DNA of 30,698 bases, taken from an uncultured Candidatus Saccharibacteria bacterium (GTDB lineage: Bacteria; Patescibacteriota; Minisyncoccia; UBA6257; JAKLIH01). The notes under the pieces were generated by a model. It made no database searches, was not told the origin of the DNA, and saw only the letters and a program-made list of their open reading frames with translations. The position numbers and the translations under genes are program-made. The stretch spans positions 1 through 30,698 of the forward strand of contig CAZFNU010000001.1 in the NCBI GenBank assembly GCA_964520445.1, written 5' to 3'. This document shows, piece by piece, positions 736 through 28,559 of this stretch (positions are counted from its first letter, which is position 1; each line of letters begins with the position of its first letter).

Positions 736-737
736 CA

Positions 738-766
738 TTGACATTTATTCAATTTTATGGTAAGAT
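738..766 (+). promoter_or_regulatory. sigma70-type promoter
   Basis: TTGACA-17 nt-TAAGAT with extended TG, directly after tRNA-Arg and upstream of the 824-2177 operon. Confidence 0.7.
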
Positions 767-823: not shown

Positions 824-1015
824 ATGATTGTAAAATGGTTAAGTTCTAATTTTGCCTGGTATATAATAGGTTTAGTTATTGGCATAATATACGGTATATA
901 CGAGATGTCAAGAGCATTTTTTAAATATGATTATAAAAATCAAGCAAGATTTGTTTTCTCTGGTATATTGATCATTGTTTGTACCGCAATACTCTGTATT
1001 TTAATTAGAAAATAA
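824..1015 (+). CDS. Small two-TM membrane protein, hypothetical
   Basis: GGAGGTG SD at 811-817 favours ATG 824 over the track start at 815. Two hydrophobic segments; TAA stop. Confidence 0.7.
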   Translation: MIVKWLSSNFAWYIIGLVIGIIYGIYEMSRAFFKYDYKNQARFVFSGILIIVCTAILCILIRK

Positions 1016-1030
1016 GAGAGGAGGATTCCG

Positions 1031-1642
1031 ATGAAAGTAATGTATGGTTTTTGCCATCCAAGAATTCTTGACAAATTTTTATCAAATGCACTTGATGTAT
1101 TAAAAATACATCGATTGCCGGGGAAAAATAGTATCCCTGTTAAAATATCCAGTAATCCTTTTTCTACCGGAAATCCACCACATCCAGCGTGGTGGCATTC
1201 ACATGGGTTTATCATACCCAGGATTAGAAAAGAAAACCAACAAGTTAATTTTGAATACGAATTAGAAAAAGAGAAAAGGATTATAAGGCGCATAACAATA
1301 AAAAAAGAAAAAACAGTTAATGTTTTTTCTATTAATTACGAAATAGACGCTAACGAATCAAGCACCTATTATGGGAGCATTACAGCTTCCTACAAAACGA
1401 TAGAGGCTATGTTTGGCTTCAAGAAATGGAACGAAGATTCAGGCACAGAATTATTATCTAAATTCTGTCATGATCCAGATAATCCTTTTGAAACTGATAA
1501 ATGTGCTAGTAACGTATTTATCAGATACAAGGAATTTCTTAACATTCCTGGGCCTAGCTGGGGACACCATACTGATCCGGCTATTTCAATAATGGTAAAC
1601 GAAGAGATAAAATCAGCCATCAGATGGCTAATGAAAAGCTAA
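1031..1642 (+). CDS. Hypothetical protein (203 aa)
   Basis: Open ORF with GAGGAGG SD; five Trp, all TGG; no recognisable domain. Confidence 0.8.
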   Translation: MKVMYGFCHPRILDKFLSNALDVLKIHRLPGKNSIPVKISSNPFSTGNPPHPAWWHSHGFIIPRIRKENQQVNFEYELEKEKRIIRRITIKKEKTVNVFSINYEIDANESSTYYGSITASYKTIEAMFGFKKWNEDSGTELLSKFCHDPDNPFETDKCASNVFIRYKEFLNIPGPSWGHHTDPAISIMVNEEIKSAIRWLMKS

Positions 1643-1682
1643 GTATAAATTAAGTATAAATAAGTATACGAAGGAGGGTTAA

Positions 1683-2177
1683 ATGGATAGATCTGATATT
1701 TTATATCATAGGAGAAAAATTGCCGAAACCGAAGTTGAGATAAATCAGATTATGGAAAAAATGAAAGAAATTCTTAGTATTGAAACATATATGGCAGAAG
1801 AAGTATATTTTGATTGCGCTCAAGAAGTACAGCGTAAAACGGTTAGAAGATTTAAAATAGGGGATTTTCTTTTTAATAGAACTGAGGACCATGGTAACTA
1901 CATAACTACATATACCATTTGGTATTGTAGAAAAAAGGTATTTAAAACATATTATAGTATAAAGGGATTGAAAGAAGGCCCCATTACTGTAAAACGATTT
2001 TATAACCGAGGAGAATGGTATAAGAAGTTCCAAAACATAGATGAAGTTATAAAAAAAGAAAAAATGATAACCCAAAAAGTAAAAGAACTTTTTAAGGCTA
2101 AGTTAAAAAACAATAAGAAAGTTATTCAAGAACTACAGAAAGAATATAGAAGACTTAATCTTTTCTCAGGATTGTAG
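1683..2177 (+). CDS. Hypothetical Lys-rich protein (164 aa)
   Basis: AAGGAGG SD, open ORF, followed by a terminator hairpin. Confidence 0.8.
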   Translation: MDRSDILYHRRKIAETEVEINQIMEKMKEILSIETYMAEEVYFDCAQEVQRKTVRRFKIGDFLFNRTEDHGNYITTYTIWYCRKKVFKTYYSIKGLKEGPITVKRFYNRGEWYKKFQNIDEVIKKEKMITQKVKELFKAKLKNNKKVIQELQKEYRRLNLFSGL

Positions 2178-2183
2178 AGAAAC

Positions 2184-2219
2184 AGGGCAGACAATAAAAT
2201 GTCTGCCCTAACTATTTTC
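2184..2219 (+). terminator. Intrinsic terminator
   Basis: AGGGCAGACA/TGTCTGCCCT 10-bp stem followed by a T-rich tail. Confidence 0.65.
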
Positions 2220-2257
2220 TTGTAATTAACGCATTTTTATGATAAAATTATAACTAT

Positions 2258-2347
2258 GGTGAGGTGCCAGAGTGGTTGAATGGGGTGCTCTCGAAAAGCA
2301 TTGTATCTTAACCGGTACCGGAGGTCCGAATCCTCCCCTCACCGCCA
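2258..2347 (+). tRNA. tRNA-Ser(CGA)
   Basis: GGTGAGG acceptor, anticodon loop ctCGAaa, long variable arm, encoded CCA. T-loop is GTCCGAA rather than GTTCGAA. Confidence 0.93.
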
Positions 2348-2389
2348 ATTCGTAGAATTAGAGTTTTCGGGGTTTATTACCTCGCTCTA

Positions 2390-2466
2390 TTGACAAATTA
2401 AGGTAAATTTGCTAAAATGGTCATAATTAAACTAAGAAATGACCAATTTTGGTAATAAATGGTCAT
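2390..2466 (+). promoter_or_regulatory. sigma70 promoter with three overlapping/downstream TGGTCAT boxes
   Basis: TTGACA 2390-2395, 17 nt, TAAAAT 2413-2418. TGGTCAT at 2418, its reverse complement at 2439, TGGTCAT again at 2460. Confidence 0.7.
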
Positions 2467-2488
2467 TTTGTGAAAAATAATCACAAAA

Positions 2489-3763
2489 ATGGATAATCAC
2501 TTAAGAATAATATTAGAAAGACAAAAATTAGAAAAAGAAAGGATTTTATCTTTCAAGGTCATAGATCGTCAAGAAAACCAAGAAGCACCAAAATATATAG
2601 ATAATGAACTAATAAAAGTAATTACTGGCCCTAGGCGTTGTGGTAAGTCAGTTTTTTCTTTTCAAGTTTTAAAAAATAGAGGATATAGTTTTGCTTATGC
2701 AAATTTTGAAGACGAAGCTCTTATTTCCGCTATTGATAATAATTATGATAAATTTACAGACGAATTAAACTTTGTTTATGGAAAAACAGACTATTTTGTT
2801 TTTGATGAAATACAAAATTTAGATAAATGAGAAATGTATTTAAATAAATTACAAAGAAGAGGATATAAAATAATAGTTACAGGATCTAACGCAAAATTAT
2901 TGAGTGGAGAATTAGCAACTTCTTTAACAGGAAGACATATTTCTATAGATTTATTTCCATTTAGCTTTCAAGAGTTCCTAGACTATAAATATCAAGAAAA
3001 AAAACCGGTAGAAACCCAATTGCCATACGAACTAGAATATTATTTAAAACAAGGTGGCTTCCCAGAAACTTTAAAACCAGAAATAGATTCATACTCTTAT
3101 CTAAATGGGCTTGTCCAAACAACGATACTAAAGGATGTTTTGTTTAGGCACGGACATAGTATTCAGAAAGGTAAAAGAATTGAGCTTTTAGCTAATTACC
3201 TAATTAATCATTGTTGTCAAGAGTTTAGCTATCGTAAATTAGCAATACCATTAGCCATCAAAAGCCACAATACTGCTGAAAAATATTTAGGATATCTACA
3301 AGAAACATTTTTATTCTTTACTTTAGGAAAATATTCGTTTAAATATTCCGAACATTTATCTTCTGATAAGAAAGTATATGTAATAGACAATGGGTTATTG
3401 ACTGCCAGAAATTTATTTAATTCTCCGAATTATGGAATATATTTCGAGAATTTAATTTTCCTAGAATTATTACGCAGAAACTATAGACCAAATTATGAAT
3501 TATTTTATTATAAAACTAAGGGTAATAAGGAGGTTGATTTTGTCTTAAAAGATCCTAATTCTAAGATTAACCAATTGATACAAGTTTGTTATGATATCCA
3601 GAATACCGAGACAGAAAAAAGAGAAGTTTCCGCCTTATTAAAAGCCAGCCAAGAATTACAGTGTAATAATTTGTTAATTATAACGAAAGACGTCGAAAAG
3701 GAAGAAATTAAAAATGAAACAATAATTAAATACATTCCTGCTTGGAAGTATCTTTTGAGTTAA
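2489..3763 (+). CDS. AAA+ ATPase, COG1373 type (AAA_14 + DUF4143), 424 aa
   Basis: Walker A GPRRCGKS, Walker B FVFDEIQ, TGSNA and GGFPE motifs, C-terminal EVDF. One TGA (2828-2830) sits at the conserved DEIQxxxxW position and joins the two track ORFs. Confidence 0.92.
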
Positions 3764-3828
3764 ATTACTCAATCGGGATTTTCCTCGAAGAAGGTTCTAG
3801 TCTTAACCAGAAGGTACCGTGCACACTA

Positions 3829-3857
3829 TTGACAATTACATAAAAAAGTGGTAATTT
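3829..3857 (+). promoter_or_regulatory. sigma70-type promoter
   Basis: TTGACA-17-TAATTT with extended TG. Confidence 0.55.
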
Positions 3858-3898
3858 TATCATTATGAAATTTAATATTTAAAAAGGGAGGTATTTAA

Positions 3899-4462
3899 GT
3901 GTTAGATAGTGCTAGTTTTATTGCGTTTGCCGGTTTAACAATAGGAATGGTTATCGCGATGATGTCCGATAATATCATATTCAAAAAATTCATAAAATCT
4001 CGAAGGATTTCAGAGAGTCAAGATAGAAATATTTTTTTTCTATATATGGCTATTGTATTTTTAGCAGCAAGCATAATAGGGTGGTTAAAAATACCTATAG
4101 GGCGTTTTGAACCATATGACCGCACTACTTATCTTACTGGTAATTTGACACTTGGTTACTATTTTTTCTGGGGTATCTTTTTGTTGATATTATCTGTAGT
4201 ATCTATTATTTATGGTAAGGCACCATTGAAAAAGAAAGAAAAAAGTTTCATACTTGAAAAATCATATTTTCTTTCAAAACCAGGAGCTGAAGATATAGTA
4301 ATCAAAGCAATTGACGATTATCGATCTCGAGAAAAAGCACAAGCACTAATATCAGAAAGGAAATTAATACCAGGAGAATATCGAGTTGAAAAAAACCTTA
4401 CCTATGTTCCAGGCAAAGAACCAGAAAAGGAAGAAAGGGCATTAATCTTTTCTTCTTTATAA
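3899..4462 (+). CDS. Three-TM membrane protein, hypothetical
   Basis: GTG start after GGGAGGT SD; three hydrophobic helices and a charged C-terminus. Confidence 0.8.
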   Translation: MLDSASFIAFAGLTIGMVIAMMSDNIIFKKFIKSRRISESQDRNIFFLYMAIVFLAASIIGWLKIPIGRFEPYDRTTYLTGNLTLGYYFFWGIFLLILSVVSIIYGKAPLKKKEKSFILEKSYFLSKPGAEDIVIKAIDDYRSREKAQALISERKLIPGEYRVEKNLTYVPGKEPEKEERALIFSSL

Positions 4463-4472
4463 CTCTAAATTT

Positions 4473-4504
4473 AAAAGAGTGGATAATATTATCCACTCTT
4501 TTTT
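4473..4504 (+). terminator. Intrinsic terminator (palindromic, potentially bidirectional)
   Basis: Perfect palindrome AAAAGAGTGGATAATATTATCCACTCTTTT followed by further T. Confidence 0.75.
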
Positions 4505-4510
4505 GAAGTC

Positions 4511-4539
4511 TTGACAGATATAAAAAAGTATGATATTAT
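4511..4539 (+). promoter_or_regulatory. sigma70-type promoter
   Basis: TTGACA-17-TATTAT with extended TG. Confidence 0.7.
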
Positions 4540-4597
4540 CAAAATATTCAGAATTGATCGTAATTTTGAAAATTAGAAATTTAAAAAGGAGAAAAGT

Positions 4598-5095
4598 ATG
4601 AACAACGGTAAGGTGAGAAGATTAAGTATCAAAGAACTAAAGGATTTAATCAAAGAAAAAAATGAGTTTGTAACACGAGTTTTTAGTGTTATGGATTTGA
4701 TTGTTAGTGTAAAAGGGGCACAGCAGACAGAAGACAATGGAGATTTGTATCACGAACTTCTTCTAGAGGGATTACGACTTAGATTAACGCTGGGGAGCGG
4801 GAAATGTCGTTCTGCAATTATATGGAGAGCTGATCAAAATCCTAAAACAGCGCTACCCTTGTTTTATGCTGCGCATGCTGGCGACGTGGAAAAAGCCAAA
4901 ATATATTATTGGCAAGAAAATACACTTATTTGGCAAGATCAGATAGACTTATATGCAACACACGTACAAGAGATTTTAACAAAAATAGAGAGAGAAGAAG
5001 CAATTAATGAACAAACAAGGAAAGCACGAGAAGAAGAAATTACAACAACCAACCAGATATACGAAGATGCTCAAAGATTAGGAATTAGCTGGTAG
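4598..5095 (+). CDS. Hypothetical protein (165 aa)
   Basis: AAAGGAG SD, open ORF, four Trp all TGG, own promoter and terminator. Confidence 0.8.
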   Translation: MNNGKVRRLSIKELKDLIKEKNEFVTRVFSVMDLIVSVKGAQQTEDNGDLYHELLLEGLRLRLTLGSGKCRSAIIWRADQNPKTALPLFYAAHAGDVEKAKIYYWQENTLIWQDQIDLYATHVQEILTKIEREEAINEQTRKAREEEITTTNQIYEDAQRLGISW

Positions 5096-5103
5096 AAAAC
5101 AAT

Positions 5104-5135
5104 ACTGGGGAAGAAACACTCTTTCCCAGTTTTTT
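5104..5135 (+). terminator. Intrinsic terminator
   Basis: ACTGGGGAAG/CTTTCCCAGT stem followed by a T-tract. Confidence 0.7.
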
Positions 5136-5295
5136 ATTTTAAAATAAGATATAAAATACAACATTATACTTTCGTAATATATCGGAAGTTTTAGATAGTT
5201 TAGTAGTATAGATATTTGATTTTATACCAAAAATTTGATAGAATATGAAAATACTTGAAAATGTAGTATTTTCAGTACAATTAGCTATATAAATA

Positions 5296-5826
5296 ATGAC
5301 TAAAGACAACTTTTCTAAAATTTATGATACGCATATGACAGAAATTTACCGTTTCTTCTATTTGCGTACTAATCAAAGAGAGCATTCTGAAGAACTAGCT
5401 TCAGAGGCCTTTTTTAAGTTTTGACAACATAATAAGAATAAGACCGAGAATTATATCAAAAATCCCCGGGCCTTTCTTTATCGTATTTCCAGAAACCTCT
5501 TAATAGATCACTTTAGAAAAAATAATCAAAACAAACAAGATATTTCTATTGAAGAATTCAATGATTCCCCAAATTTACCTCGTACCCTTGTTGATGACTC
5601 TTTCCGACAATCAGTAGAGCTAGAAGAAAAACAAAATAAGATAAAGAAAGCCTTACAAAAAATCAACCCAACCTATGCCGATATTATTATCTATTATTTT
5701 ATTGAAGGATTAGATAGCCATGAAATTGCTTCTATCTTAGAAAAAACAGAAAGTAATATCAGAGTTTTAATTCATAGATCTCTGGAATCATTAAAAAAAG
5801 AAATAGGAGAAAATATTGATTTATAA
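5296..5826 (+). CDS. ECF RNA polymerase sigma factor (176 aa, table 4)
   Basis: Region 2 YRFFYLRT..SEELASEAFFKF-W(TGA 5422)..AFLYRISRNLLIDHFRK; region 4 EGLDSHEIASILEKTESNIRVLIHRSL. Missed entirely by the ORF track. Confidence 0.9.
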
Positions 5827-5890
5827 TCTTAATTTGCATTTTATTCCTTTTTTTGCTATGATACAAATAATAAAAAATTAAGAGCTTGTC

Positions 5891-6091
5891 ATGCCTAAAA
5901 CTCATAAAATCTTCATTACTGCTTTTATTATCGGAGCTACCTGTATTAGCACTTGCGCTGCTATGGTTTTTACCACTCCTGGTATATCCGAAATCATCAT
6001 GATGCGTATTAGAACAGTTTTTCACCCAGAAGAATATTCAGCTTCTGTTTGGGAATCTTCCAAACCCCTAGTTAACCCATTTATTAAGTAA
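5891..6091 (+). CDS. Small hypothetical protein with N-terminal hydrophobic segment
   Basis: 66-aa ORF between the two sigma genes; no recognisable domain. Confidence 0.5.
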   Translation: MPKTHKIFITAFIIGATCISTCAAMVFTTPGISEIIMMRIRTVFHPEEYSASVWESSKPLVNPFIK

Positions 6092-6147
6092 CCTATATAT
6101 AGTAAGATAGATAATGAAATTTTTATATATCCTAAATTTATTTAATT

Positions 6148-6723
6148 ATGCAAAAAGAACAACCTAATTCTAATAAAGATAAAACTCCCAAGAAACTATC
6201 TAAGGAGAAAGAGGCTTTAAAATTAAAATTTATAGAATATCTGAAGCAATATAAAGAGGAGATTTATAAAATAGCCTATTACTATGCTAAAAATAAAGAC
6301 GATGCAGAGGATTTAGCGCAGGAAGCCTGTACAAAAGCCTATTGCTATTTCCATACCTTCAAAGAAGGTTCTAGTTTTAAAGCTTGGATGTTTAAAATCA
6401 TAAACAACACATTTAAAGGGATATGAACCAAAAAACAGAAACACGGCACCTCAGAATATATCAAGGGTATAAAGGAAGACCTATATAAATTCCAAGACAA
6501 AGATCGGCTAGAGGACCAATTAATAAGTATTGATATTAATCTTTTAAAGAAAAAAATAACTACATTACCCAAAGAATTTAAAGAAGTCATAACCCTGTAT
6601 GACATTCAAGGATTATCCTATGAAGAAATTGCCCAAAAAATAAATATAAATATAGGTACAGTAAGATCTCGACTACACCGAGCTAGAGCAATTTTGAAAG
6701 AACAGATAGGAAATGACATATAG
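6148..6723 (+). CDS. ECF RNA polymerase sigma factor (191 aa, table 4)
   Basis: DAEDLAQEACTKAY, SFKAWMFKIINNTF, TGA 6424 read through, then region 4 QGLSYEEIAQKININIGTVRSRLHRAR; TAG 6721-6723. Confidence 0.92.
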
Positions 6724-6725
6724 AG

Positions 6726-6765
6726 CTGTAACAAATTCTCCTAATATACGTCTACATTTATAGCT
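6726..6765 (+). repeat. 40-bp direct repeat copy 1, containing an ECF-type promoter TGTAAC-N16-CGTC
   Basis: 37/40 identical to 7309-7348. The AAC-N16-CGTC spacing matches SigM/W/X-like ECF promoters. Confidence 0.85.
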
Positions 6766-6793
6766 TAAAATATATTATTTTAACATATCAATC

Positions 6794-7075
6794 ATGAAAA
6801 AAACAAAAAAAGTAATTAAAAAACAAACAAAAAAGATTTTGGAATATACTGCTGTATTTGAAAGGGAAGAAGACGGAAAATATACAGTTCGTTTTCCTAG
6901 CTTACCAGGGTGCTTTACTTATGGGAATAACTTAAAACATGCTCATGAAATGGCCAAGGAAGTTTTGGAATTATGATTAGAAGTACTAGAAGAGAACAAA
7001 AAGCCAATTCCGATTGAACGTAAGAATGTTATTGCCTGTATTAGTAAACTAAAAGTTTCTTTAGTCAAAAACTAA
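6794..7075 (+). CDS. hicB: HicB-family antitoxin (short form, 93 aa)
   Basis: YTAVFEREEDGKYTVRFPSLPGCFTYG..HAHEMAKEVLEL-W(TGA 6974)-LE..PIP; no C-terminal DNA-binding domain seen. Confidence 0.9.
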
Positions 7076-7084
7076 GATTATTTA

Positions 7085-7303
7085 ATGCCTTCTTTAAATT
7101 ATACTCAAATTACAAAAACACTAAAGAAACATGGTTTTATACTTATTCGGCAGCGAGGAAGTCATTTTATATGGCATAACTTTGAAAAAGAGATTACCGT
7201 CCCCGTTCCTTTTCATGGGAAATCAGAACCCATTGCTATAGGCACGGTTATGGATATAATTCGTCAATCAAGTATTCCCAAGGAGAAATTTTTTAAAAGA
7301 TAA
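7085..7303 (+). CDS. hicA: HicA-family mRNA interferase toxin
   Basis: LKKHGF..RQRGSHFI..ITVPVPFH..IAIGTVMDII, the canonical HicA pattern. Confidence 0.92.
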   Translation: MPSLNYTQITKTLKKHGFILIRQRGSHFIWHNFEKEITVPVPFHGKSEPIAIGTVMDIIRQSSIPKEKFFKR

Positions 7304-7308
7304 TTTAA

Positions 7309-7348
7309 CTGTAACAAATTCTCCTAATACACGTCTACATACATAGCT
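7309..7348 (+). repeat. 40-bp direct repeat copy 2, ECF-type promoter
   Basis: ctgtaacaaattctcctaatacacgtctacatacatagct, upstream of the anti-sigma-like gene. Confidence 0.85.
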
Positions 7349-7436
7349 ACAAATAAACATGAACTTTGCCTAGCAAAGCCAAAAACAAACAAAAAATATA
7401 AAAAAGCTAGTAAATACTAGCTAAAATTAAAGAAAC

Positions 7437-8336
7437 ATGACAAATTTTACTCACGAAAATCAAAATAGCGAGCAAAATAAGGGCCAAAACGACGTTTTAG
7501 CTACTCTTTTATCGTTTCGTGAAGTAAAACCTAGAGTTTTATGACAAGAAGCTAATAAAGGAAGATTATTAGAAAGAATTAGATTAGAACAACATACTGA
7601 AAGAAAAGCTAATTATAAGCCTAGTTATTTTATTAAACAAATGTCTTGATTTGCCAAACCAGTAGCTATTTCTTTAGCTAGTTTTGGCTTACTTAGTGGT
7701 ACTGTTATAGGAACTCAAGCAATTTCTCCTTTAAGTGTTTTTTACCCAGCTAAGATCTTGGTGGCTAATACCTATTATAGAGTATTACCTAAAGAAAAAC
7801 AGATAGAATATAGACTATCTCTAGCTAATGAGAAATTATCTGCTTTAAAAACACTTCAAAATGTAACAAAACCATCTAAAACTCGTCAGATATCTTACCT
7901 CACTAATTCTTTAACCTCAGATCTCTATTTCTCAGCTAATAATATGAAACAAATTAAGGATTTAAAGAAATTAGTCACAATCGCTCCTAAAATAGAAGCA
8001 GCTACTAAAAAATGAGCTAATGAAACCAGTACTAATCCTAAAATGGATGAAATTGTTAAAAATGTAAAACAAGAAATTCTAGCTATTATAATCGATACCG
8101 AAGATAAAGCTGATAATTGTCCTTCTTATTTATCTCAAAGAATAACAGAATTATCAGATCCTAGTAAGTTAGCTATCTATAACCCAGAGAACAAAGTAGC
8201 AGTAATAAATTTACTTACTGATGCTAAAAAAGCAATGTTATCCAATGATTGTCTGAAATCCTTACAACTTCTAGATCAGGTGGCAGAGTATCAACTTCAA
8301 TTGTTAATTAACCCTACTGGTTTGGAAACAAAGTAG
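7437..8336 (+). CDS. Single-TM protein, DUF5667-like, putative anti-sigma factor (299 aa, table 4)
   Basis: Three TGA (7542, 7647, 8013) join the fragments. N-terminal VKPRVL-W..KGRLLERI, one TM, then ISPLSVFYPAK resembling the LPGDxLYPxK motif, then a helical C-domain. Position downstream of an ECF sigma fits an anti-sigma role (inference). Confidence 0.7.
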
Positions 8337-8445
8337 TCAGGGATAATTAAAACCCCATTATCCTTAAACATTAAATTAAAAGTTTAAGGAAGGTCGGCTT
8401 ATGGATCGCATAAATAAACAAAAACAAATAAGTTTAAAATTTAAA

Positions 8446-10434: not shown

Positions 10435-10483
10435 TTATATAGTAACAATATCATAATTGTTCTGCTTCACAGGAATGTGAATT

Positions 10484-10515
10484 ACCTCGCGCTACGAAAG
10501 TAGTGCGAGGTTTTT
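10484..10515 (+). terminator. Intrinsic terminator
   Basis: ACCTCGCGCTAC-GAAA-GTAGTGCGAGGT plus TTTT. Confidence 0.85.
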
Positions 10516-10563
10516 GATTCAAAAAAGTTTTCCACAGGCTTAAATAAAAAAGGCTTTTACCTA

Positions 10564-10592
10564 TTGCATTTTTTTTAAAAAAGGTGTATACT
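10564..10592 (+). promoter_or_regulatory. sigma70-type promoter
   Basis: TTGCAT-17-TATACT, with a T8A6 run extending from the -35 box into the spacer. Confidence 0.6.
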
Positions 10593-10724
10593 GTATTTAT
10601 ACACAAAATTGCGTTAGGTCGAGAAGTAATATCTTTATTTATAAATGCATAATAAGTAAAGATCAAACTTATACACGCAAATTTTAAATAAATTTTTAAA
10701 TATATAAAATTAAATTTTAAAGAA

Positions 10725-12194
10725 ATGAAAAAGATTTTTTCGATTTTAGCTATTATAGGAGTAGCTTTGATGATAGGATTTGTCGGACAAATACAAGCTG
10801 CAGCTCCAGGAATAACAGCAGCTACCGGTGGTGGTGCCATTTCTCTAGATACTTGTAATGTATCCTGGACATCTTTATTAGGTCCAGTTCTTACAGAAGC
10901 AGCTGCTGGTGATATAACAACAGGTGGTACTGATACAATTGTTATTAATGCCCCTGCCAATATGGAATTCAACACAGAACAAGAGGTTACTGCTTTAGTT
11001 AGTGGTGGCGGTACAAAATTAACTTTATCAGACTATACTGTCTCTCCAACAGCTAGCACAATTACTTTTGAGGTTTCGACTATCTCTGTTGCTAGCCCAT
11101 CAACAATTACTTTCTTGAATATTCAAGTTAGACCAAAAACAGGATCTTGTACAACTATCAGTACGGCCAATATGACCTTCAGTGGTACAAGTAGCGCGAC
11201 CGGAAACTGCGGAGCACTAACAACAACTTTTGGTGTTGCAACCAAGTTAGCTTTTACTGGTCAACCATCTACACCAACCGTTGCTTCTGTAGCTTTTACT
11301 ACTCAACCTATAGTTACAATTCAAGATATGAATGGTAATACCAGAACAGCTGATACAAATGAAATTACAATAGCTGCTTATTCTAATGTTGGGTGTACCA
11401 CAGTCGCAACAGGTACTCTAAGCGGTACTTTAGCAATGAACGCTATTGATGGGGAAGCCGATTTCGTTGGTTTAGGCTTAAAATACAATAAAGTAGGAAC
11501 AATATATCTTCGAGCTTCTACCCCGGGGTTAACATCAGCTTGTTCAAATGCTGAAGTTATTAACGTCGGAGCCGCTTCTAAAGTAATAGTATCTGCATAC
11601 CCAACAGTAGGTTATACCTATAGCAATTTTAGTACACAACCAGTTGTTCAAATTACTGATGCTGATGACAACGTTGTAACCACAGATAACTCCCGAATTT
11701 CAATAGAAGCATATACAAAAACCAATTTCGACGGAACAAAATCTGAGTTTAACGGCACTTCTACTATCTACGCAACAGACGATGGATTGGTAGGTGGTGC
11801 AGCAACAGGTATTGCTACATTTGCAGGTATTAAATACAATACCGTCAACACAACAGGAATTTTCTTATGTGCCTGGGTTGATGCTAACGGAGATGGTGTA
11901 AAGGACGAAGGGGAGACAAAGACTGGTTGTTCACCATTATTTAAAGTTTATGCCAATTCTTCCAATGCCCCAGTTGCCCAAACAACTACAGTTACCACAG
12001 CTCCAACTACAACTACAACTAGTGCTGCTACTACAACTACAACACTAGCTCCTGCTACAAGTGTTCCAACTACTGTAAAGCCAGTATCTAGTATGACCGA
12101 AGCTGAAAAAACAACTTATCTAGGAGAATTAAAAACTTTCTTAGTAAGTCTCTTAACCCAGATTCTTAATGCTTTACTAGCTGCTCAACACTAA
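10725..12194 (+). CDS. Secreted Ser/Thr-rich Ig-like surface protein (489 aa)
   Basis: Signal peptide, repeated AxKLAFTGQP/TQPxVxIxD Ig-like modules, Thr-rich linker, amphipathic C-terminal helix. Confidence 0.85.
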   Translation: MKKIFSILAIIGVALMIGFVGQIQAAAPGITAATGGGAISLDTCNVSWTSLLGPVLTEAAAGDITTGGTDTIVINAPANMEFNTEQEVTALVSGGGTKLTLSDYTVSPTASTITFEVSTISVASPSTITFLNIQVRPKTGSCTTISTANMTFSGTSSATGNCGALTTTFGVATKLAFTGQPSTPTVASVAFTTQPIVTIQDMNGNTRTADTNEITIAAYSNVGCTTVATGTLSGTLAMNAIDGEADFVGLGLKYNKVGTIYLRASTPGLTSACSNAEVINVGAASKVIVSAYPTVGYTYSNFSTQPVVQITDADDNVVTTDNSRISIEAYTKTNFDGTKSEFNGTSTIYATDDGLVGGAATGIATFAGIKYNTVNTTGIFLCAWVDANGDGVKDEGETKTGCSPLFKVYANSSNAPVAQTTTVTTAPTTTTTSAATTTTTLAPATSVPTTVKPVSSMTEAEKTTYLGELKTFLVSLLTQILNALLAAQH

Positions 12195-12214
12195 AATATA
12201 TCAAGATATATTTC

Positions 12215-12241
12215 ACCAGACTCGCTTGCGAGTCTGGTTTT
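12215..12241 (+). terminator. Intrinsic terminator
   Basis: ACCAGACTCG/CGAGTCTGGT stem plus TTT. Confidence 0.8.
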
Positions 12242-12332
12242 CGTTTTAAGTATTGATAAAAAATTAAATTTATGATAGGATATATATTATAGGATATATC
12301 AAAAAGTATTTATTAACTTAAAAGATATATAT

Positions 12333-13829
12333 ATGACAAAGAAATTTATTCGAACACTAATTCTGTTGATTTTAGTTCTTGGGTTTAGACAATCAGCCCT
12401 TGCCTTTAATGTAAATGATAATGTTTTTATCAACCAGTCCTATAGTCTAAATGCAGACTCTAATATTAAAACTTTTTTATTGAAATCTACTAACCAGATA
12501 TTATTCTATGCTGATCAAATATGGTGAGCTAGTTTATCAAGTTCTGAACAATCCAATATCGAGGGGAAGATATATATCCTAAGTACTGAATTTGAATATC
12601 ATATTAAGCCAATTTTAAACAATAACTACGGTAAAGAAGCAAACACCATTAATCCCACAGATACAAGATTAATCATAATTCTAACCCCTATGACCGAAGG
12701 GGTTCAAGGATATATCAAAACCAGTGACTTAGTTTTAAAATCAAGTAATAAATTATCTAATGAAGGGAATATAATTTACCTTAATGGGAATAAAATTAAA
12801 ACAGCAGAACCCAATATTATTAATTCCTTTTTAGCCCATGAATTTACTCATCTTATCTCCTATAACCAAAAGTATTTAAAGTATAATGTATCCGAAGATC
12901 TTTGGCTTGAAGAACTAAGAGCTGAGTATGCCCCAACTTTATTAGGATATAACGATAACTGGGACATAAGCTATCTAAAAGTTAGAGCTAGTGATTTTTT
13001 CAAAAACAACACTATTTCTTTTATGGACTGAGATAACACGATGTCTAGTTATTCTAGTATTAACTTATTTGCCACCTACCTTACTGAACAATATGGTAAA
13101 GAAATTTTAATTAATTCTTTACATTCCCCTAAAGTAGGTATTGAATCCTTGAATGCAACATTAGAAAATTTAGGAAATCATGATACTTTTAATCAAATCT
13201 ATCAAAACTGGTTAATTGCTAATATTTTAAACGATTGTACGAATTCTTCTAAGTATTGTTATAAAAACCTTAATCTTAAAAAACTATCTATTATTCCATC
13301 GAATTTTTATCTACCTACTAATAGTGATAGTGCTTTAGCTATCTCTGATACTTTTGTCCCATACATGGCCAAATATCAGAAGATCTCTGGAGGATCTTCT
13401 AACCTTAATTTTGATTTTGAAAACTCTTCTGATAATTTAACCCAGAAAATACCATATATTTTGGTTAACAAAAACGGATCTAAACAACTCTACTTTTTTG
13501 AGTTTCAAAAAACCAAATCTCAAAAAATAGTAATCCCTGATTTTAATAAAGATATAACTACGCTTATCATTGTTCCCTATCTTATTCGTAATGATGATAA
13601 CTACAATATCAGATCCATCTTTAAATGAAGCGTCCAGGCAGGCAATGGTACAGACATACCTAGTCCTGATACAACCATTGTTATACCCCCTACAAAGCCC
13701 GCTACACCGTCTGAAACGACCTCTACCACTACTATAGAACGCCAACAACAGATTATCTTATTACAGACCAGATTAATTACCCTTTTATTAGAATTAATAA
13801 CTTCTTTAAAATCAAGATTGGGGATATAA
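12333..13829 (+). CDS. Secreted zinc metallopeptidase-like protein (HEXXH; 498 aa, table 4)
   Basis: Signal peptide; AHEFTHLI with downstream LWLEELRAEYA; TGA at 12525, 13029, 13626 join four segments; Pro/Thr linker and amphipathic C-terminal helix. Confidence 0.85.
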
Positions 13830-13890
13830 AATCTGACTTTTCTAATTTAACTAACATTAAATTATCTTTATATCAGGTAAAGATATATAT

Positions 13891-13924
13891 CAAAATATGA
13901 CGAGCAATCGCCATATTTTGTTTT
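13891..13924 (+). terminator. Intrinsic terminator with GCAA tetraloop
   Basis: CAAAATATG/CATATTTTG outer stem and CGA-GCAA-TCG inner stem, then T-tract. Confidence 0.6.
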
Positions 13925-13930
13925 CTATGC

Positions 13931-13972
13931 AAATTAAAAAACCACCCATTTAATTAGGTGGTTTTTTAATTT
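13931..13972. terminator. Bidirectional terminator between convergent genes
   Basis: AAATTAAAAAACCACC/GGTGGTTTTTTAATTT 16-bp inverted repeat. Confidence 0.8.
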
Positions 13973-13974
13973 AC

Positions 13975-14607
13975 CTATTGTGTAGGCATTTGTTCTATAT
14001 CCGTAGTCGTAACATCTTGAACTATAGCTTCACTACCACATTGTTTCATCTCTTCTTTATATGTTTTTCAGGCAGTATTTTTAGCAGTTATGAAATCTTT
14101 AGTTAATGTTTTATCTGCTAGCTTAAAAGCATCCCAAGCAGTTTTAAGAGCTGTTTGTTTTTCTGTTTTTGTTGTTTTGTTTCAGGCTGTTTGCAAGGCT
14201 GTTGAGCGTTGTGAAAAAGCCTCATTTAATTTGGTTGACCGGGTATTTCAAGCACTAGCAATAGCACTATCTCTTTTAGCAATAGCTGCTTTTACACAAG
14301 CTGTATCCAAAGTTGTCTTAGATTTGTTAATCATTGGTTTAGTGCTTGTATTATTCCTTAAATTCTGAGGTATACTGGGTTTTGTATTATTCCCATTTGG
14401 ATTAGCAACTGGCTTAGGAGGTTTATTTCCTAAGAAATTTTGTAATAGATTTTTTATTCTATCTGGTAAAGCAGGCCTCGTATCATTAGTTTGCTCACTT
14501 ACTACTGTAGTCGCCGTAGTATCTGTTGTTTCTTGTCCCAAAACAATTAAAGAACCAGATATAACCAACGCACTAGAAAGAAAAATTATACCTATAGTTT
14601 TTTTCAT
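13975..14607 (-). CDS. Secreted helical-repeat protein, Parcubacteria-type (210 aa, table 4)
   Basis: Signal peptide, Pro/Asn linker, LDTACVKAAIAKRD, then four A-W helical repeats (three TGA at 14250, 14184, 14070; one TGG at 14136) ending in YKEEMKQC; TAG 13975-13977. Confidence 0.88.
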
Positions 14608-14718
14608 ATTTTTTTATTTATTTTAATTAAAGATTTTTAGAAGTCGACACTATATGTATAAGGGTATTATGACACATTTTTTATTGAAATACAACCTATA
14701 CTGTGGAAAACTACATTC

Positions 14719-14747
14719 TTGCATAAAACATTAAAATTTGATATTAT
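14719..14747 (+). promoter_or_regulatory. sigma70-type promoter
   Basis: TTGCAT-17-TATTAT with extended TG. Confidence 0.6.
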
Positions 14748-14837
14748 AAAGATATTAATATGTGTAATCTGTGGACCTTAAAAAAGGAAGTTCGCAGTCA
14801 ACTATATATGAGTATATATCTTTAAAAGGAGGTTTCC

Positions 14838-17813
14838 ATGTTTAAGAAATTTCTTGTTTTTTTCTTGTTATTTTCTTTACTATATCTAACTATTCCCATA
14901 AATGCCTTTAAAGTATCTGCCATTCAAAATGTTTGGATGGAAATTTTACCCAGAAAGATCAGCTCATCTGCTACCTACAAATTTCACTTCACAATCGAAA
15001 AAAAATTAGAGGTACACAAACCTATTATTCTTTTCTTTGGTGCGGGAACCACGTTAGTTCCCCCTTTACCCGAAGATCCGATTAAACGTCATGAGCGTTT
15101 AGTCCAAATCATTGAAGCCATGTCTATAGGTTTATCACCCTGTTCTGCCTGTCAAGGAGATCCAATTATCAAGTTTAAAAAAGATGGAACCGTAGAATCC
15201 ATGGAATTTAATACTCATCTTGATTTAGATCCTAGTTTTCCAGGCTATGAACACGTTGTAGTCACTGTTCCTGCAGTATGTGGTTTTACTACACCTGCAA
15301 AACCCGGATTTTATATCTACGGCGTCTCTACTTTTGTAGAACAAACAAAAGCTTATGCCCCACCATTTGAAATTGTTGAAACTCATCTAGGTGTTCCTGA
15401 AGGTATGCCAACAATTGAAGTTTTACCAGTAACTTGTAATTCCAATGCTACCTACATAATTACTTTTAATGTTGGTAGGGGTGGATGGCTACCCAGTGGA
15501 GCAGGTTTAATTAAATTAAAATTCCCCATTGAAACAAAATTTTCTAAACTCTTTGCTGAAATTAAACCAGAAAATATATTAGTTAATAATGTCCCCGTAG
15601 GTAATCCCATTAATGGTACAAAAACATTAATTAATTTCATTACTCCAGTGGAGATAAAAGATTCAGGAAAAGTTACCATAGTATTGAATGAAAAAGTTGG
15701 GATTTTTAACCCAGCAGGGCCAGGATCATTTACTGTAGAAGTAGCTACTTCAGCAGAACCAGAATGGGTCAAATCAGAAACCTATTCTATCCAAAAAGGT
15801 ATTAGTAAACTCACAATAAATCCAATCAAAGTGGGTAGAAATGCAGAATATGTTTTAAGCTTTGCCTTTAGTATAGTAGAACTGAAAATGGGAGGAGCTA
15901 TTATTGTAAAATTCCCTCCCAATGTTCAATTACCTTCGAATATTAATAATGAGTACATTCTTATTAACGAGGAAAAACCAATTTTAGCAGAGAAAAAAGG
16001 AACTGAGTTTGTTATATTTATAGCCAAAGAGTTACATCTTGACGATGGTGTTGAAATAATCTTTAAAAAAGAATGTGGTATTAGAAACCCAGTTACCCCA
16101 GGAAAAATTCAATTACAATACAGACCTAGTAATTATGATATTTATGAAGCTACATCTTTTGTAGAAATTATCGAAGGGAAACTGGAAGTAGGAGAAATAA
16201 CCATAGATCCTAGAAATGCTAATGAAATTGCCTCATATATAATTCCAGTTACCCTAGGAGATAAAAATGGTATAACGATGTTGAATACAGAAGCCCTAAG
16301 TATACAATTTCCTACACAGACATTTTTACCAGAAATAATTAACTTAGAAGATGTTCGTCTAAACTATGTTGATAAAAAGGTAATTATCCCAATCCATAAA
16401 GTAATAAAATCAGAAAATATAATTGAGGTTTATCCCTCTTCAAATATTCCTCAAGCTAGCCAACTATTAATAACATTTTATAAAGAAATAGGAATAAGAA
16501 ATCCAGAAGACACTGGACAATATCAACTATCTGTCTTTACTACTAAAGAGACAGAACCACAAAGTTCAGAATATAACATCCTACCTCCACTACCCATAAC
16601 TCAAATCATTGTTACAGGTGGGGTCATGGGAAAAAATGATTGGTATACAGAGCCACCTTTAGTTAAATTTATTTGTTCTGATAGTACTGCTGAAACTATA
16701 TTAATTTGGGATAATAAAGTAAACCAATCCATTATCTTTGATGGTAAAGAGAAACCCTTAGATACAGGACAATATGAAACGATTCTCCACTATTATTCTA
16801 AAAGTGTATACGGACAAGAAAAAACAAAAGATTATAAATTTAAAGTGGATACAGTAAAACCAGAAGTAGTTATTGATTCACCCAAAGAAACAAAAACAAT
16901 AACTAATATTTCTCCGATAGAAATTACTGGCAGAACCACTGGGATAAAAACAATATTGTATGGTATTGATGTGATACAACCTGATGAGTTAGTTTTTATT
17001 AATGATGAAAAAATTCCTGTTGTGATTAAGGAAGATCAAGAAAAACAAATTTTCTCTGGAGAATTTAATACTAAACTTGATCTTAAACAAGGAGAAAATA
17101 GTATTCATCTTCTAGTAGAGGATTATGCCGGGAATTCGGTAACTAAAGATTATATAGTAATTTTTGATAATATTCCTCCTGTTTTAGAATTGATAGAGCC
17201 CAAACAAAATTCAGTAATCTTAACATCTAAATTAACCATAAAAGGTAAAACTGAACCAGATATTCAACTTCTAGTAAATGGTGAAATAGTATACATAGAA
17301 GAAGATGGAAAGTTTCTTTTCGAAACCTACATGAAAAATATTGGGAAACAAATATTCAATACTGAAGCAACAGATTCAGCCGGAAATATAACACTTAAAG
17401 AATTAAACCTCTGGTTTGGATATACCATAATACTTCAAATAGGTAGCCGGGAAGCTCTTACTAACGCTACCCAAGAAGCATTAGATGTAGCCCCATATAT
17501 AAAATCAGGATCTACGATGGTACCCTTTAGATTTATAGGGCAGGCATTAGGCGCTGAAATTGGTTGGCAACTAAATTCTCAAAAATTTGTTGAAAAGGTT
17601 AGTTATAGACTCGGAAATAATTTTATCGAATTAACCATAGGGTCAAAAACAGCCAAAGTTAATGGTAAAAATGTTTCTCTTCTAGTTCCCCCAGAGATTA
17701 TCAAAGGAAGAACTTTTATACCTCTAAGATTTGTTACAGAAAATCTAGGAGCAGAAGTTTTGTGGGAAGCTAAAGAACAAAGGATAACCATTAAATATCC
17801 TAAACTAGATTAG
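14838..17813 (+). CDS. Secreted multi-Ig-like protein with C-terminal copper amine oxidase N-terminal ('stalk') domain (991 aa)
   Basis: AAGGAGGT SD, signal peptide, repeated beta domains, DxxxP Ig-like units. C-terminus APYIKSGSTMVPFRFIGQALGAEIGW..PPEIIKGRTFIPLRFVTENLGAEVLW is typical of Cu_amine_oxidN1. Confidence 0.9.
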   Translation: MFKKFLVFFLLFSLLYLTIPINAFKVSAIQNVWMEILPRKISSSATYKFHFTIEKKLEVHKPIILFFGAGTTLVPPLPEDPIKRHERLVQIIEAMSIGLSPCSACQGDPIIKFKKDGTVESMEFNTHLDLDPSFPGYEHVVVTVPAVCGFTTPAKPGFYIYGVSTFVEQTKAYAPPFEIVETHLGVPEGMPTIEVLPVTCNSNATYIITFNVGRGGWLPSGAGLIKLKFPIETKFSKLFAEIKPENILVNNVPVGNPINGTKTLINFITPVEIKDSGKVTIVLNEKVGIFNPAGPGSFTVEVATSAEPEWVKSETYSIQKGISKLTINPIKVGRNAEYVLSFAFSIVELKMGGAIIVKFPPNVQLPSNINNEYILINEEKPILAEKKGTEFVIFIAKELHLDDGVEIIFKKECGIRNPVTPGKIQLQYRPSNYDIYEATSFVEIIEGKLEVGEITIDPRNANEIASYIIPVTLGDKNGITMLNTEALSIQFPTQTFLPEIINLEDVRLNYVDKKVIIPIHKVIKSENIIEVYPSSNIPQASQLLITFYKEIGIRNPEDTGQYQLSVFTTKETEPQSSEYNILPPLPITQIIVTGGVMGKNDWYTEPPLVKFICSDSTAETILIWDNKVNQSIIFDGKEKPLDTGQYETILHYYSKSVYGQEKTKDYKFKVDTVKPEVVIDSPKETKTITNISPIEITGRTTGIKTILYGIDVIQPDELVFINDEKIPVVIKEDQEKQIFSGEFNTKLDLKQGENSIHLLVEDYAGNSVTKDYIVIFDNIPPVLELIEPKQNSVILTSKLTIKGKTEPDIQLLVNGEIVYIEEDGKFLFETYMKNIGKQIFNTEATDSAGNITLKELNLWFGYTIILQIGSREALTNATQEALDVAPYIKSGSTMVPFRFIGQALGAEIGWQLNSQKFVEKVSYRLGNNFIELTIGSKTAKVNGKNVSLLVPPEIIKGRTFIPLRFVTENLGAEVLWEAKEQRITIKYPKLD

Positions 17814-17836: not shown

Positions 17837-17872
17837 ACAGGCTTCGATGCAATTCATCGAAGCCTGTATTAA
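17837..17872. terminator. Terminator between convergent genes
   Basis: ACAGGCTTCGATG/CATCGAAGCCTGT 13-bp perfect stem. Confidence 0.75.
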
Positions 17873-19486: not shown

Positions 19487-19516
19487 CACCCCAATAAATT
19501 TCTTTTTCCCAAAAGC

Positions 19517-28554: not shown

Positions 28555-28559
28555 TTTTG

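What the first reader, a model, noticed from the sequence alone, without database searches (positions are those of the whole stretch)
824..17813. Two gene populations: SD-led genes use only TGG, SD-less native genes prefer TGA
Seen: the six genes with a strong Shine-Dalgarno (824, 1031, 1683, 3899, 4598, 14838) contain 23 Trp codons, all TGG. Genes with A/T-rich SD-less leaders use roughly 41 TGA versus 27 TGG (hand counts). At a ~60% TGA share, 0/23 has a chance of order 1e-9. Inference: these six are recent imports from standard-code, SD-using bacteria that have not ameliorated. A code-4 cell can express code-11 genes that end in TAA/TAG (all six do), but its own genes break in code-11 recipients, so the recoding would act as a one-way HGT valve and TGA fraction as an age-of-acquisition clock.
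Basis: partly seen in the sequence, partly recalled or inferred. Interest (0 to 1): 0.75.

Follow-up and report, generated by a model that had tools for sequence, protein, structure and literature searches.

The report
Foreign gene islands in recoded bacterium
In a tiny bacterium that reads the stop codon TGA as tryptophan, six genes stand out because they keep a classical ribosome-binding site and never use TGA; comparison with sister strains shows they are recently acquired foreign genes, at least one from an unrelated standard-code phylum.

Summary
Six genes (824, 1031, 1683, 3899, 4598, 14838) are the only ORF starts in the window with a strong Shine-Dalgarno. Together they hold 23 TGG and 0 TGA, against 41 TGA and 27 TGG in the other 20 genes (Fisher p = 6e-8). 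TGA is Trp, not Gly: it falls on invariant Trp columns in AlaRS and in the AAA ATPase. The organism belongs to a small code-4 clade of Patescibacteria (class Paceibacteria/Minisyncoccia), first reported in 2026.

The same split recurs in sister genomes: 13 SD-led genes have 0 internal TGA and 41 TGG, while about 80 SD-less genes have 157 and 82.

All three SD-led blocks are missing at the matching positions in sister genomes. A strain 98% identical in the flank carries a different SD-led gene at the same junction. The 991-aa protein nests inside a Caldisericia-only family. GC3 and synonymous codon usage are host-like, and equally AT-rich Caldisericia exist, so only the SD and the Trp codon reveal the import.

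The reading as recent imports from standard-code, SD-using donors is well supported. The "one-way valve" and the "clock" are reasonable corollaries that were not tested here. This is ordinary horizontal transfer with an unusually clean marker. Interest is moderate.

The parts
664..736 (+). tRNA-Arg(GCG). It is the left anchor of variable slot 1 and is conserved in sisters L004 and L005.
   Evidence: ARAGORN; blastn synteny
738..766 (+). Sigma-70-type promoter-like site (TTGACA, 17 nt, TAAGAT) ahead of the first SD-led operon
   Evidence: sequence
824..1015 (+). SD-led gene 1. 63-aa membrane protein, SD GGGAGGTGA, 0 TGA and 2 TGG, stop TAA.
1031..1642 (+). SD-led gene 2. 203 aa, SD GAGGAGGA, 0 TGA and 5 TGG, stop TAA. 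Only distant homologs (33% identity or less), and no fold match.
1683..2177 (+). SD-led gene 3. 164-aa ORFan, SD GAAGGAGGG, 0 TGA and 2 TGG, stop TAG.
2184..2209 (+). Intrinsic-terminator-like hairpin that closes island 1
2258..2347 (+). tRNA-Ser(CGA), the right anchor of slot 1. In sister L005 the interval between tRNA-Arg and tRNA-Ser holds a different SD-led set, including purB and purC.
2489..3763 (+). Native AAA_14/DUF4143 ATPase. It has no SD, and its TGA lies on an invariant Trp column. It is 84% nt identical to L005 and 98% to L101.
3775..3819 (+). Degenerate partial copy of tRNA-Ser (anticodon loop plus variable arm). It marks the left junction of island 2.
3899..4462 (+). SD-led gene 4. 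187-aa membrane protein, GTG start, SD AAGGGAGGT, 0 TGA and 2 TGG, stop TAA.
4473..4502 (+). Perfect palindrome followed by a T-run, a terminator-like site after gene 4
   Evidence: (I4)
4511..4539 (+). Promoter-like site (TTGACA, 17 nt, TATTAT) ahead of gene 5
4598..5095 (+). SD-led gene 5. 165-aa ORFan, SD AAAGGAGA, 0 TGA and 4 TGG, stop TAG. An independent assembly (L097) confirms its junction with the native sigma gene.
5104..5130 (+). Intrinsic-terminator-like hairpin that closes island 2. Homology with the sister resumes at about 5214.
5296..5826 (+). Native ECF sigma factor. No SD, 1 TGA. In L005 it lies directly next to the ATPase.
14719..14747 (+). Promoter-like site (TTGCAT, 17 nt, TATTAT) ahead of gene 6
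   Evidence: read from the sequence
14838..17813 (+). SD-led gene 6. 991-aa secreted surface protein (Glucodextran_B plus Cu_amine_oxidN1 'stalk' domains), SD AAAGGAGGT, 0 TGA and 8 TGG, stop TAG. Member of a Caldisericia-only family.
17837..17867 (+). Hairpin followed by a T-run, a terminator-like site that closes island 3

Best explanation
The window comes from a cellular Patescibacteria genome, in a small clade of Paceibacteria/Minisyncoccia that reads TGA as Trp. Its own genes start translation without a Shine-Dalgarno.

The six SD-led, TGA-free genes form three small horizontally acquired blocks, at 824-2177, 3899-5095 and 14838-17813. Each block brings its own SD and terminator and has a promoter-like site ahead of it. 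The blocks sit in variable slots: between tRNA-Arg and tRNA-Ser, next to a tRNA-Ser remnant, and beside a toxin-antitoxin module.

The genes came from donors that use the standard code. Such donors cannot carry in-frame TGA, so every Trp is TGG, and they need an SD. At least the 991-aa surface protein derives from a Caldisericia-like donor.

The residence time has been short compared with the time over which Trp codons turn over in this lineage, so neither marker has decayed yet.

What is shown: the pattern, code 4, the insertions relative to sisters, and the Caldisericia affinity of one gene.

What is inferred: the direction and recency of transfer for the five ORFans, that the genes are expressed, and the mechanism of insertion.
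For: The pattern:
- SD-led genes have 0 TGA and 23 TGG; the rest have 41 and 27 (p = 5.7e-8).
- An unbiased SD scan finds the same six genes.

Code 4:
- TGA lies on invariant Trp columns.

Lineage:
- The AlaRS scan places close relatives at 70-98% identity, all with code-4-like ORF statistics. The next relatives are at 53% or less and are standard-code Paceibacteria.
- This agrees with the code-4 Minisyncoccia clades reported in PMC13092985 and 10.64898/2026.05.24.727570.

Native initiation is SD-less across the class:
- Only 5.5% of 1090 genes in standard-code relatives reach -7 kcal/mol, against 2% at random positions.
- Many Parcubacteria lack the anti-SD (PMC9297842).

Insertions:
- In L005 the ATPase abuts the sigma gene (6056 to 6066), while the window has 1.46 kb in between.
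- The tRNA-Arg to tRNA-Ser slot holds different SD-led genes in L005.
- L091 and L092 lack the 991-aa gene between conserved flanks.
- L101, 98% identical over 1.46 kb, switches to a different SD-led gene right after the tRNA-Ser remnant.

Assembly:
- Junctions are not assembly artefacts, because L097 reproduces the 4598-sigma junction at 100% identity.

Donor of gene 6:
- 31 full-length homologs, every named one from Caldisericia. P0005, the one examined in genomic context, sits in the core chromosome next to rpoB.
- The window protein nests inside that tree, and most of its 8 Trp positions (6 clearly) are conserved.

Recency:
- At orthologous Trp sites of native genes, the window and its sisters differ in codon at 38 of 65 sites, and only 3 are TGG in both.
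- So 23 of 23 TGG implies a residence below about 0.2 relaxation times. This last figure is an inference.
Against: - GC, GC3 and synonymous codon usage outside Trp do not differ from native genes. The usual compositional sign of foreign DNA is therefore absent, and the case rests on equally AT-rich donors existing (L009).
- Five of the six genes are ORFans. One has distant homologs only, the other four were checked only by exact-cluster look-up, HMM libraries and viral/plasmid scans, which found no close relative, so no donor is known. The only named distant homolog of gene 1031 is itself from a Paceibacterota genome.
- The closest Caldisericia homolog is only 48% identical, so the actual donor has not been sampled.
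- No integrase, direct repeat or other insertion scar was found at the islands.
- Expression in the recipient has not been shown.
Confidence: 0.8

Rival explanations
1. The SD-led genes belong to a code-neutral pool of cassettes that shuttles between this episymbiont-like bacterium and standard-code neighbours, possibly its host. Selection, not youth, keeps them free of TGA and keeps their SD, so that they work in both cell types.
For: - All 13 SD-led genes seen in three strains lack internal TGA.
- Different cassettes occupy the same junction in near-identical strains.
- Each cassette carries its own SD and terminator, with a promoter-like site ahead.
- There is a precedent: phages of code-25 CPR that avoid TGA altogether (PMC10746230).
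- One gene encodes a Caldisericia surface protein, which would fit a host link.
Against: - One sister cassette ends in TGA used as a standard-code stop. That is not code-neutral design.
- No mobility gene, repeat or vector was found.
- None of the four genes scanned (1031, 1683, 4598, 14838) has a relative in viral contigs, and none of the three searched (1683, 3899, 4598) has a match in plasmids.
- No near-identical copy in any standard-code genome was found. The best match for gene 6 is 48% identical.
- Recency alone explains the data.
Confidence: 0.1
2. The two classes reflect expression or translational control within one native gene set. Genes that need strong or special initiation keep an SD and avoid TGA, because TGA is decoded less efficiently than TGG.
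For: In some SD-poor lineages a minority of native genes does retain an SD (general knowledge). The window holds no ribosomal or other clearly highly expressed genes to serve as a control.
Against: - The SD-led genes are strain-specific accessory genes, absent from the matching positions in sisters.
- Housekeeping genes of the clade (AlaRS, Obg, FolD, UvrA/B-like) are all SD-less and use TGA where they have Trp.
- GC3 and codon usage do not differ between the classes.
- One gene has Caldisericia ancestry.
Confidence: 0.05
3. Assembly chimera: pieces of a standard-code genome (Caldisericia or other) were mis-joined into a CPR contig.
For: The contig is a metagenome assembly, and co-occurring AT-rich organisms could be co-assembled.
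Against: - Three separate blocks are interleaved with native genes on one strand.
- Independent assemblies from other runs reproduce two junctions: L097 at 100% across gene 4598 and sigma, and L101 across the ATPase and the tRNA remnant.
- Sister genomes from other samples show the same kind of interleaving.
Confidence: 0.02

Closest known systems
Genomic islands and strain-specific accessory gene slots next to tRNA genes in bacteria
   Same: Small blocks of foreign genes sit in variable slots anchored by tRNA genes or tRNA remnants. They differ between close strains and consist mostly of ORFans plus a surface protein.
   Different: No integrase, direct repeats or compositional skew mark them. 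They are recognised instead by two features the recipient never uses: an SD, and exclusive use of TGG.
UGA-to-Trp (table 4) reassignment in Patescibacteriota class Minisyncoccia, family JAKLIH01 and genus GCA-2747955 (NAR 2026 PMC13092985; bioRxiv 10.64898/2026.05.24.727570)
   Same: Same phylum and class. TGA lies on conserved Trp columns, the DNA is AT-rich, and relatives were annotated with code 11 and so appear with fragmented genes. One close relative (L012, Sandtown MAG) comes from the same project as genomes named in the NAR paper, judging by accession prefix. That link is an inference.
   Different: In the passages searched by keyword (neither paper was read in full), neither mentions Shine-Dalgarno or horizontal transfer, or a TGA-free, SD-led gene subset. 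Membership of this contig in JAKLIH01 or in GCA-2747955 was not established here.
Code-agnostic phages of code-25 CPR (Liu et al. 2023, mBio, PMC10746230)
   Same: Genetic material that contains no TGA at all can be read correctly under both the standard and the reassigned code.
   Different: Those are whole phage genomes for which a dual host range is proposed. Here the units are chromosomal gene blocks, and recency of import explains the lack of TGA without invoking selection.
Genetic-code differences as a barrier to gene flow (for mycoplasmas, Citti et al. 2020, PMC7466169; engineered recoded strains, from general knowledge)
   Same: The idea that a stop-to-sense reassignment limits exchange with standard-code organisms.
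   Different: The mycoplasma review suggests the code limits acquisition. The data here show that acquisition from standard-code donors happens readily. The asymmetry (import is easy, export fails) is a corollary and was not measured.

Membership tests
Translation table 4 organism (TGA = Trp) | In-frame TGA aligns with conserved Trp, not Gly, in homologs from standard-code organisms | tested here: met
   ATPase: invariant Trp column. AlaRS positions 153, 173 and 196: Trp in 72-76 of 76 relatives, no Gly. At sister orthologs TGA pairs with TGG or TGA at 62 sites and with other codons at 5.
Translation table 4 organism (TGA = Trp) | tRNA-Trp(UCA) present and release factor 2 absent | not testable with these tools
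   Neither gene can be assessed from a 30.7-kb window. The four tRNAs found are Arg, Ser, Ala and Asn. The literature reports both features for code-4 Minisyncoccia (PMC13092985).
Horizontally acquired genomic island | Absent from the matching position in close relatives | tested here: met
   All three blocks. A strain with 98% identical flank carries a different cassette.
Horizontally acquired genomic island | Closest homologs lie outside the recipient's lineage, and the gene nests in the donor clade | tested here: inconclusive
   Met for gene 14838: Caldisericia only, nested. Not decidable for the five ORFans.
Horizontally acquired genomic island | Atypical base composition or codon usage | tested here: not met
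   GC 0.3175 against 0.3171. GC3 0.2425 against 0.2405. Synonymous usage outside Trp: permutation p = 0.57. Only Trp codon choice and the SD are atypical.
Horizontally acquired genomic island | Mobility signatures (integrase, flanking direct repeats, tRNA target) | tested here: inconclusive
   tRNA-Arg, tRNA-Ser and a tRNA-Ser remnant flank islands 1 and 2. No integrase or convincing direct repeats were found. The serine recombinase at 26908 belongs to a separate prophage-like element.
Integron gene cassettes | IntI integrase with attI, and attC sites after each cassette | tested here: not met
   No tyrosine integrase is present. The hairpins after the cassettes are ordinary GC-stem plus T-run terminators.
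Recoded phage genome with a standard-code early region | Phage structural and replication genes, a suppressor tRNA, and a contiguous early/late code partition | tested here: not met
   The context is cellular: sigma factors, sortase, CAP, and AlaRS/Obg/FolD in syntenic sisters. There is no suppressor tRNA, and the SD-led blocks are interleaved with native genes.

The most novel reading that the evidence does not exclude
The SD-led, TGA-free cassettes are not merely young. They are a standing, code-neutral gene pool exchanged between a code-4 Patescibacteria episymbiont and its standard-code host, with Caldisericia as the candidate host. Host-type surface proteins would be borrowed for attachment or mimicry. 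The reassigned codon would then work as a true one-way valve: it lets host genes in, blocks symbiont genes from leaving, and serves as a built-in timer for dating each import.
Probability: 0.1. Interest if true: 0.8.

Novelty: new member of a known kind. Interest (0 to 1): 0.5.

Why it matters
In a recoded lineage, the reassigned codon labels foreign DNA without any need for compositional differences. Here, methods based on GC or codon usage would miss every island, while the combination of an SD with zero TGA picks them out cleanly.

Applied to whole genomes of the newly recognised code-4 Patescibacteria, and equally to code-25 lineages or Mollicutes, the marker could do three things:

- measure how often recoded, host-dependent bacteria take genes from standard-code neighbours;
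- indicate who those neighbours, or hosts, are (here Caldisericia);
- give a relative age for each import.

It also shows in practice that a stop-to-sense reassignment does not stop gene import. This bears on arguments that code changes isolate lineages genetically.

Tried and rejected
- **Code 25 (TGA = Gly).** Rejected. No Gly is found at any TGA-aligned column.
- **Recoded phage with a standard-code early region.** Rejected on gene content and on synteny with cellular sister contigs.
- **Assembly chimera.** Rejected by independent assemblies.
- **GC or expression explanation.** Rejected.
- **Integron-like cassettes.** There are no attC or IntI features.
- **The 12-mer CTGTGGAAAACT as an island border.** It turned out to be a conserved element upstream of native promoters.
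- **Concatenated query.** I joined nine small SD-led proteins into one query for the last homologous-protein search. It returned nothing, not even self-hits, and wasted the search.
- **Exact look-ups of the window's own proteins.** They returned nothing for genes 14838 and 1031.
- **Small SD-led proteins against HMM libraries.** Pfam, PHROGs and NCBIfam gave no significant family.
- **Viral-contig scans for genes 1031, 1683, 4598 and 14838.** No relatives.
- **Plasmid tblastn for genes 1683, 3899 and 4598.** No match.
- **AlphaFold model of gene 1031.** pLDDT 74.5, with no significant fold match in the PDB.
- **Rfam search of the tRNA-like element in L005.** No match.
- **PDB sequence alignments of the recombinase and the CAP protein.** They did not help to decide the code.


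Full report
**1. What is in the window.**
The window is 30.7 kb at 32% GC. Reading only TAA and TAG as stops gives a dense, mostly one-strand gene map. With TGA also read as a stop, long-ORF coverage falls from 0.97 to 0.61.

Pfam identifies the following genes:
- an AAA_14/DUF4143 ATPase (2489-3763);
- two ECF sigma factors (5296, 6148);
- HicB (6794);
- a peptidoglycan-binding surface protein (8401);
- a SocA/HTH antitoxin (18359, minus strand);
- a CAP protein (19730);
- a sortase (20841);
- an acyltransferase (25761);
- a large serine recombinase (26908, minus strand).

Four tRNA genes are present: Arg 664-736, Ser 2258-2347, Ala 19416-19487 and Asn 26875-26947.

**2.

| Gene | SD motif |
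|---|---|
| 824 | GGGAGGTGA |
| 1031 | GAGGAGGA |
| 1683 | GAAGGAGGG |
| 3899 | AAGGGAGGT |
| 4598 | AAAGGAGA |
| 14838 | AAAGGAGGT |

- Duplex energies with the anti-SD are -7.1 to -14.3 kcal/mol. All other genes are at -3.0 or weaker, except 8401 (-7.4).
- A motif scan that ignored the gene calls returns the same six.
- Trp codons are 0 TGA and 23 TGG in the six genes, and 41 TGA and 27 TGG in the other 20 genes. Fisher p = 5.7e-8; at gene level p = 9.4e-5.
- All six genes end in TAA or TAG.

**3. TGA is Trp, and the lineage is a code-4 clade of Patescibacteria.**
This had to be tested, because the recoded CPR lineages known until recently read TGA as Gly.

- The ATPase TGA lies on a Trp column that is invariant in 12 homologs. 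Sister proteins called under code 11 end exactly before conserved Trp residues.
- Sister contigs found through the ATPase carry Obg, AlaRS and FolD, so the organism is cellular.
- A GTDB-wide scan with that AlaRS found four close relatives (98, 78, 71 and 70% identity), all with code-4-like ORF statistics. The next relatives are at 53% or less and are standard-code Paceibacteria/Parcubacteria.
- AlaRS TGA positions 153, 173 and 196 align to Trp in 72-76 of 76 standard-code relatives, and no Gly appears.
- UGA-to-Trp in Patescibacteriota class Minisyncoccia (family JAKLIH01 and genus GCA-2747955) was first reported in 2026 (PMC13092985; 10.64898/2026.05.24.727570). This contig very probably belongs there, but that was not shown.

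**4. The split is a property of the clade, not of this window.**
Sister L004/L005, whose ATPase is 84% nt identical, has six SD-led genes, including purB and purC. They hold 17 TGG and no internal TGA. Thirty-four SD-less genes in the sisters hold 59 TGA and 26 TGG. Twenty-seven more genes on L091, L092, L094 and L096 are all SD-less and use TGA. Pooled, SD-led genes have 0 TGA and 41 TGG, and SD-less genes have 157 and 82 (p = 3e-17).

Standard-code relatives in the class also lack an SD: 5.5% of 1090 genes reach -7 kcal/mol, against 2% at random positions. This agrees with the reported loss of the anti-SD in about half of Parcubacteria (PMC9297842). An SD is therefore foreign to the whole class, not only to the recoded clade.

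**5. The SD-led genes are insertions.**
- Island 2: in L005 the ATPase is followed within 10 nt by the upstream region of the sigma gene. The window has 1.46 kb there, namely a tRNA-Ser remnant (3775-3819) plus genes 3899 and 4598.
- Island 1: between tRNA-Arg and tRNA-Ser the window has genes 824-2177, while L005 has a different SD-led set.
- Island 3: L091 (78% aa identity in the flanking peptidase-like gene, 93% in the antitoxin) and L092 both lack the 991-aa gene between conserved neighbours. L091 has a native-type gene with 3 TGA in that position.
- Strain level: L101, from another sequencing run, is 98% identical to window 2374-3835. It then switches to a different gene with TAAGGAGG and a GTG start.
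- L097 reproduces the junction of gene 4598 with sigma at 100% identity, which rules out a chimera.
- Each block has a TTGACA-type promoter-like site ahead of it and a hairpin plus T-run after it.

**6. Donor.**
The 991-aa protein has a signal peptide, Glucodextran_B and Cu_amine_oxidN1 domains. It has 31 full-length homologs at 34-48% identity, and every named one is from Caldisericia. For the one examined in genomic context (P0005), the gene lies in the core chromosome next to rpoB, rpoC and fusA. In a neighbour-joining tree the window protein nests inside this family, and most of its 8 Trp positions (6 clearly) are conserved.

The other five genes are ORFans:
- they are singleton clusters (looked up for 1031, 1683 and 4598 only);
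- gene 1031 has only homologs at 33% identity or less, one of them labelled Paceibacterota;
- they match no HMM family and have no viral or plasmid relatives in the scans run (viral: 1031, 1683, 4598; plasmid: 1683, 3899, 4598);
- a model of gene 1031 (pLDDT 74.5) matches no solved fold.

**7. Recency and 'amelioration'.**
GC (0.3175 against 0.3171), GC3 (0.2425 against 0.2405) and synonymous usage outside Trp (permutation p = 0.57) are the same in both classes. This does not argue against import. One Caldisericia contig carrying a homolog has 32.6% GC, and its gene has GC3 of 0.18, as in the window gene (0.20). Another has 39% GC.

The only features that separate the classes are those a standard-code, SD-using donor is forced to have.

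At orthologous Trp sites of native genes, the codon pairs between the window and its sisters are:

| Window / sister | Sites |
|---|---|
| TGA / TGA | 24 |
| TGG / TGA | 29 |
| TGA / TGG | 9 |
| TGG / TGG | 3 |

So Trp codon choice is randomised at this level of divergence. With 0 TGA in 23 codons, the 95% upper bound on the TGA share is 12%. Against an equilibrium near 60-66%, this means less than about 0.2 relaxation times. That estimate is an inference from a two-state model.

No import of intermediate age (decayed SD, some TGA) was seen. This hints that imports are short-lived rather than retained, but the sample is small.

**8. The corollaries.**
The stop-codon point carries no weight. 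Nine of 10 genes on the Caldisericia locus already end in TAA or TAG. One sister import ends in TGA, and under code 4 it is read through for W-Y-W to a TAA. Import of genes with TGA stops is therefore tolerated.

The 'one-way valve' follows logically: in-frame TGA would truncate exported genes. Nothing here measures export, and code barriers to gene flow are an established topic (PMC7466169, PMC10746230). The 'clock' is qualitatively backed by the Trp-codon turnover, but it has not been calibrated.

**9. Rivals.**
- A code-neutral shuttle pool kept TGA-free by selection cannot be excluded. It is not needed, however, and the TGA-terminated sister cassette argues against it.
- Expression-level or GC explanations fail.
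- A chimera fails.
- A phage with a mixed code fails on gene content.

**10. Verdict.**
The pattern is real, highly significant and replicated. The best explanation is recent horizontal acquisition of small gene blocks from standard-code, SD-using donors into a code-4, SD-less Patescibacteria genome, with one block coming from a Caldisericia-like donor. The thing itself is of a known kind, namely genomic islands. What is new is the clean dual marker, in a lineage whose recoding was recognised only in 2026.

Noticed in passing
window 26875-30698: A prophage-like element lies at tRNA-Asn. A large serine recombinase (26908-28410, minus strand) overlaps the 3' end of the tRNA, and 28806-29219 (minus strand) matches a terminase small subunit (phrog_4102, E = 1e-14). 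Its genes are SD-less and use TGA-Trp, so this mobile element is adapted to code 4, in contrast to the SD-led islands. It runs off the end of the window.
   Followed up: partly
window 10526-10537 and 14701-14712; L091 1916-1927 and 2782-2793; L092 2531-2542: An exact 12-mer, AGTTTTCCACAG (usually followed by G), lies 5-30 nt upstream of the -35 box of native surface-protein genes 10725 and 13975 (minus strand), and of their sister orthologs. It is a candidate regulator-binding or UP-like promoter element.
   Followed up: partly
window 3775-3819; L005 4610-4653; L007 797-845: A 45-nt degenerate copy of the middle of tRNA-Ser(CGA), covering the anticodon loop and the variable arm. It sits upstream of the ATPase in L005 and L007 but downstream of it in the window and in L101. 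It marks a junction where variable segments meet. There is no Rfam match.
   Followed up: partly
L101 1457-1784 (SRR12486999): This strain is 98% identical to window 2374-3835. At the exact place where the window has gene 3899, it carries a different SD-led gene (TAAGGAGGAAAACA then GTG). Cassettes therefore turn over at strain level.
   Followed up: yes
L005 3405-3725: An SD-led import in the sister genome ends in TGA as a standard-code stop. Under code 4 it is extended by Trp-Tyr-Trp to a TAA. Donor TGA stops are therefore tolerated.
   Followed up: yes
L005 874-3222 (also L004 5741-8089): The sister genome's SD-led, TGA-free block includes purB and purC (0 TGA and 12 TGG). This would be a metabolic gain by import in a lineage that usually lacks purine synthesis. 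The donor was not determined.
   Followed up: no
window 17992-19144 (minus strand): An HTH plus SocA/Panacea antitoxin gene overlaps a 145-aa partner gene by about 70 nt. This is a toxin-antitoxin-like pair directly next to island 3. The antitoxin is 93% identical in sister L091, while the partner is poorly conserved there.
   Followed up: no
window native genes compared with sister orthologs: The window strain uses TGG more often than its sisters at shared Trp sites: 29 sites are TGG in the window and TGA in the sister, against 9 the other way. The TGA share therefore differs between close genomes, about 60% here and about 70% or more in the sisters.
   Followed up: partly
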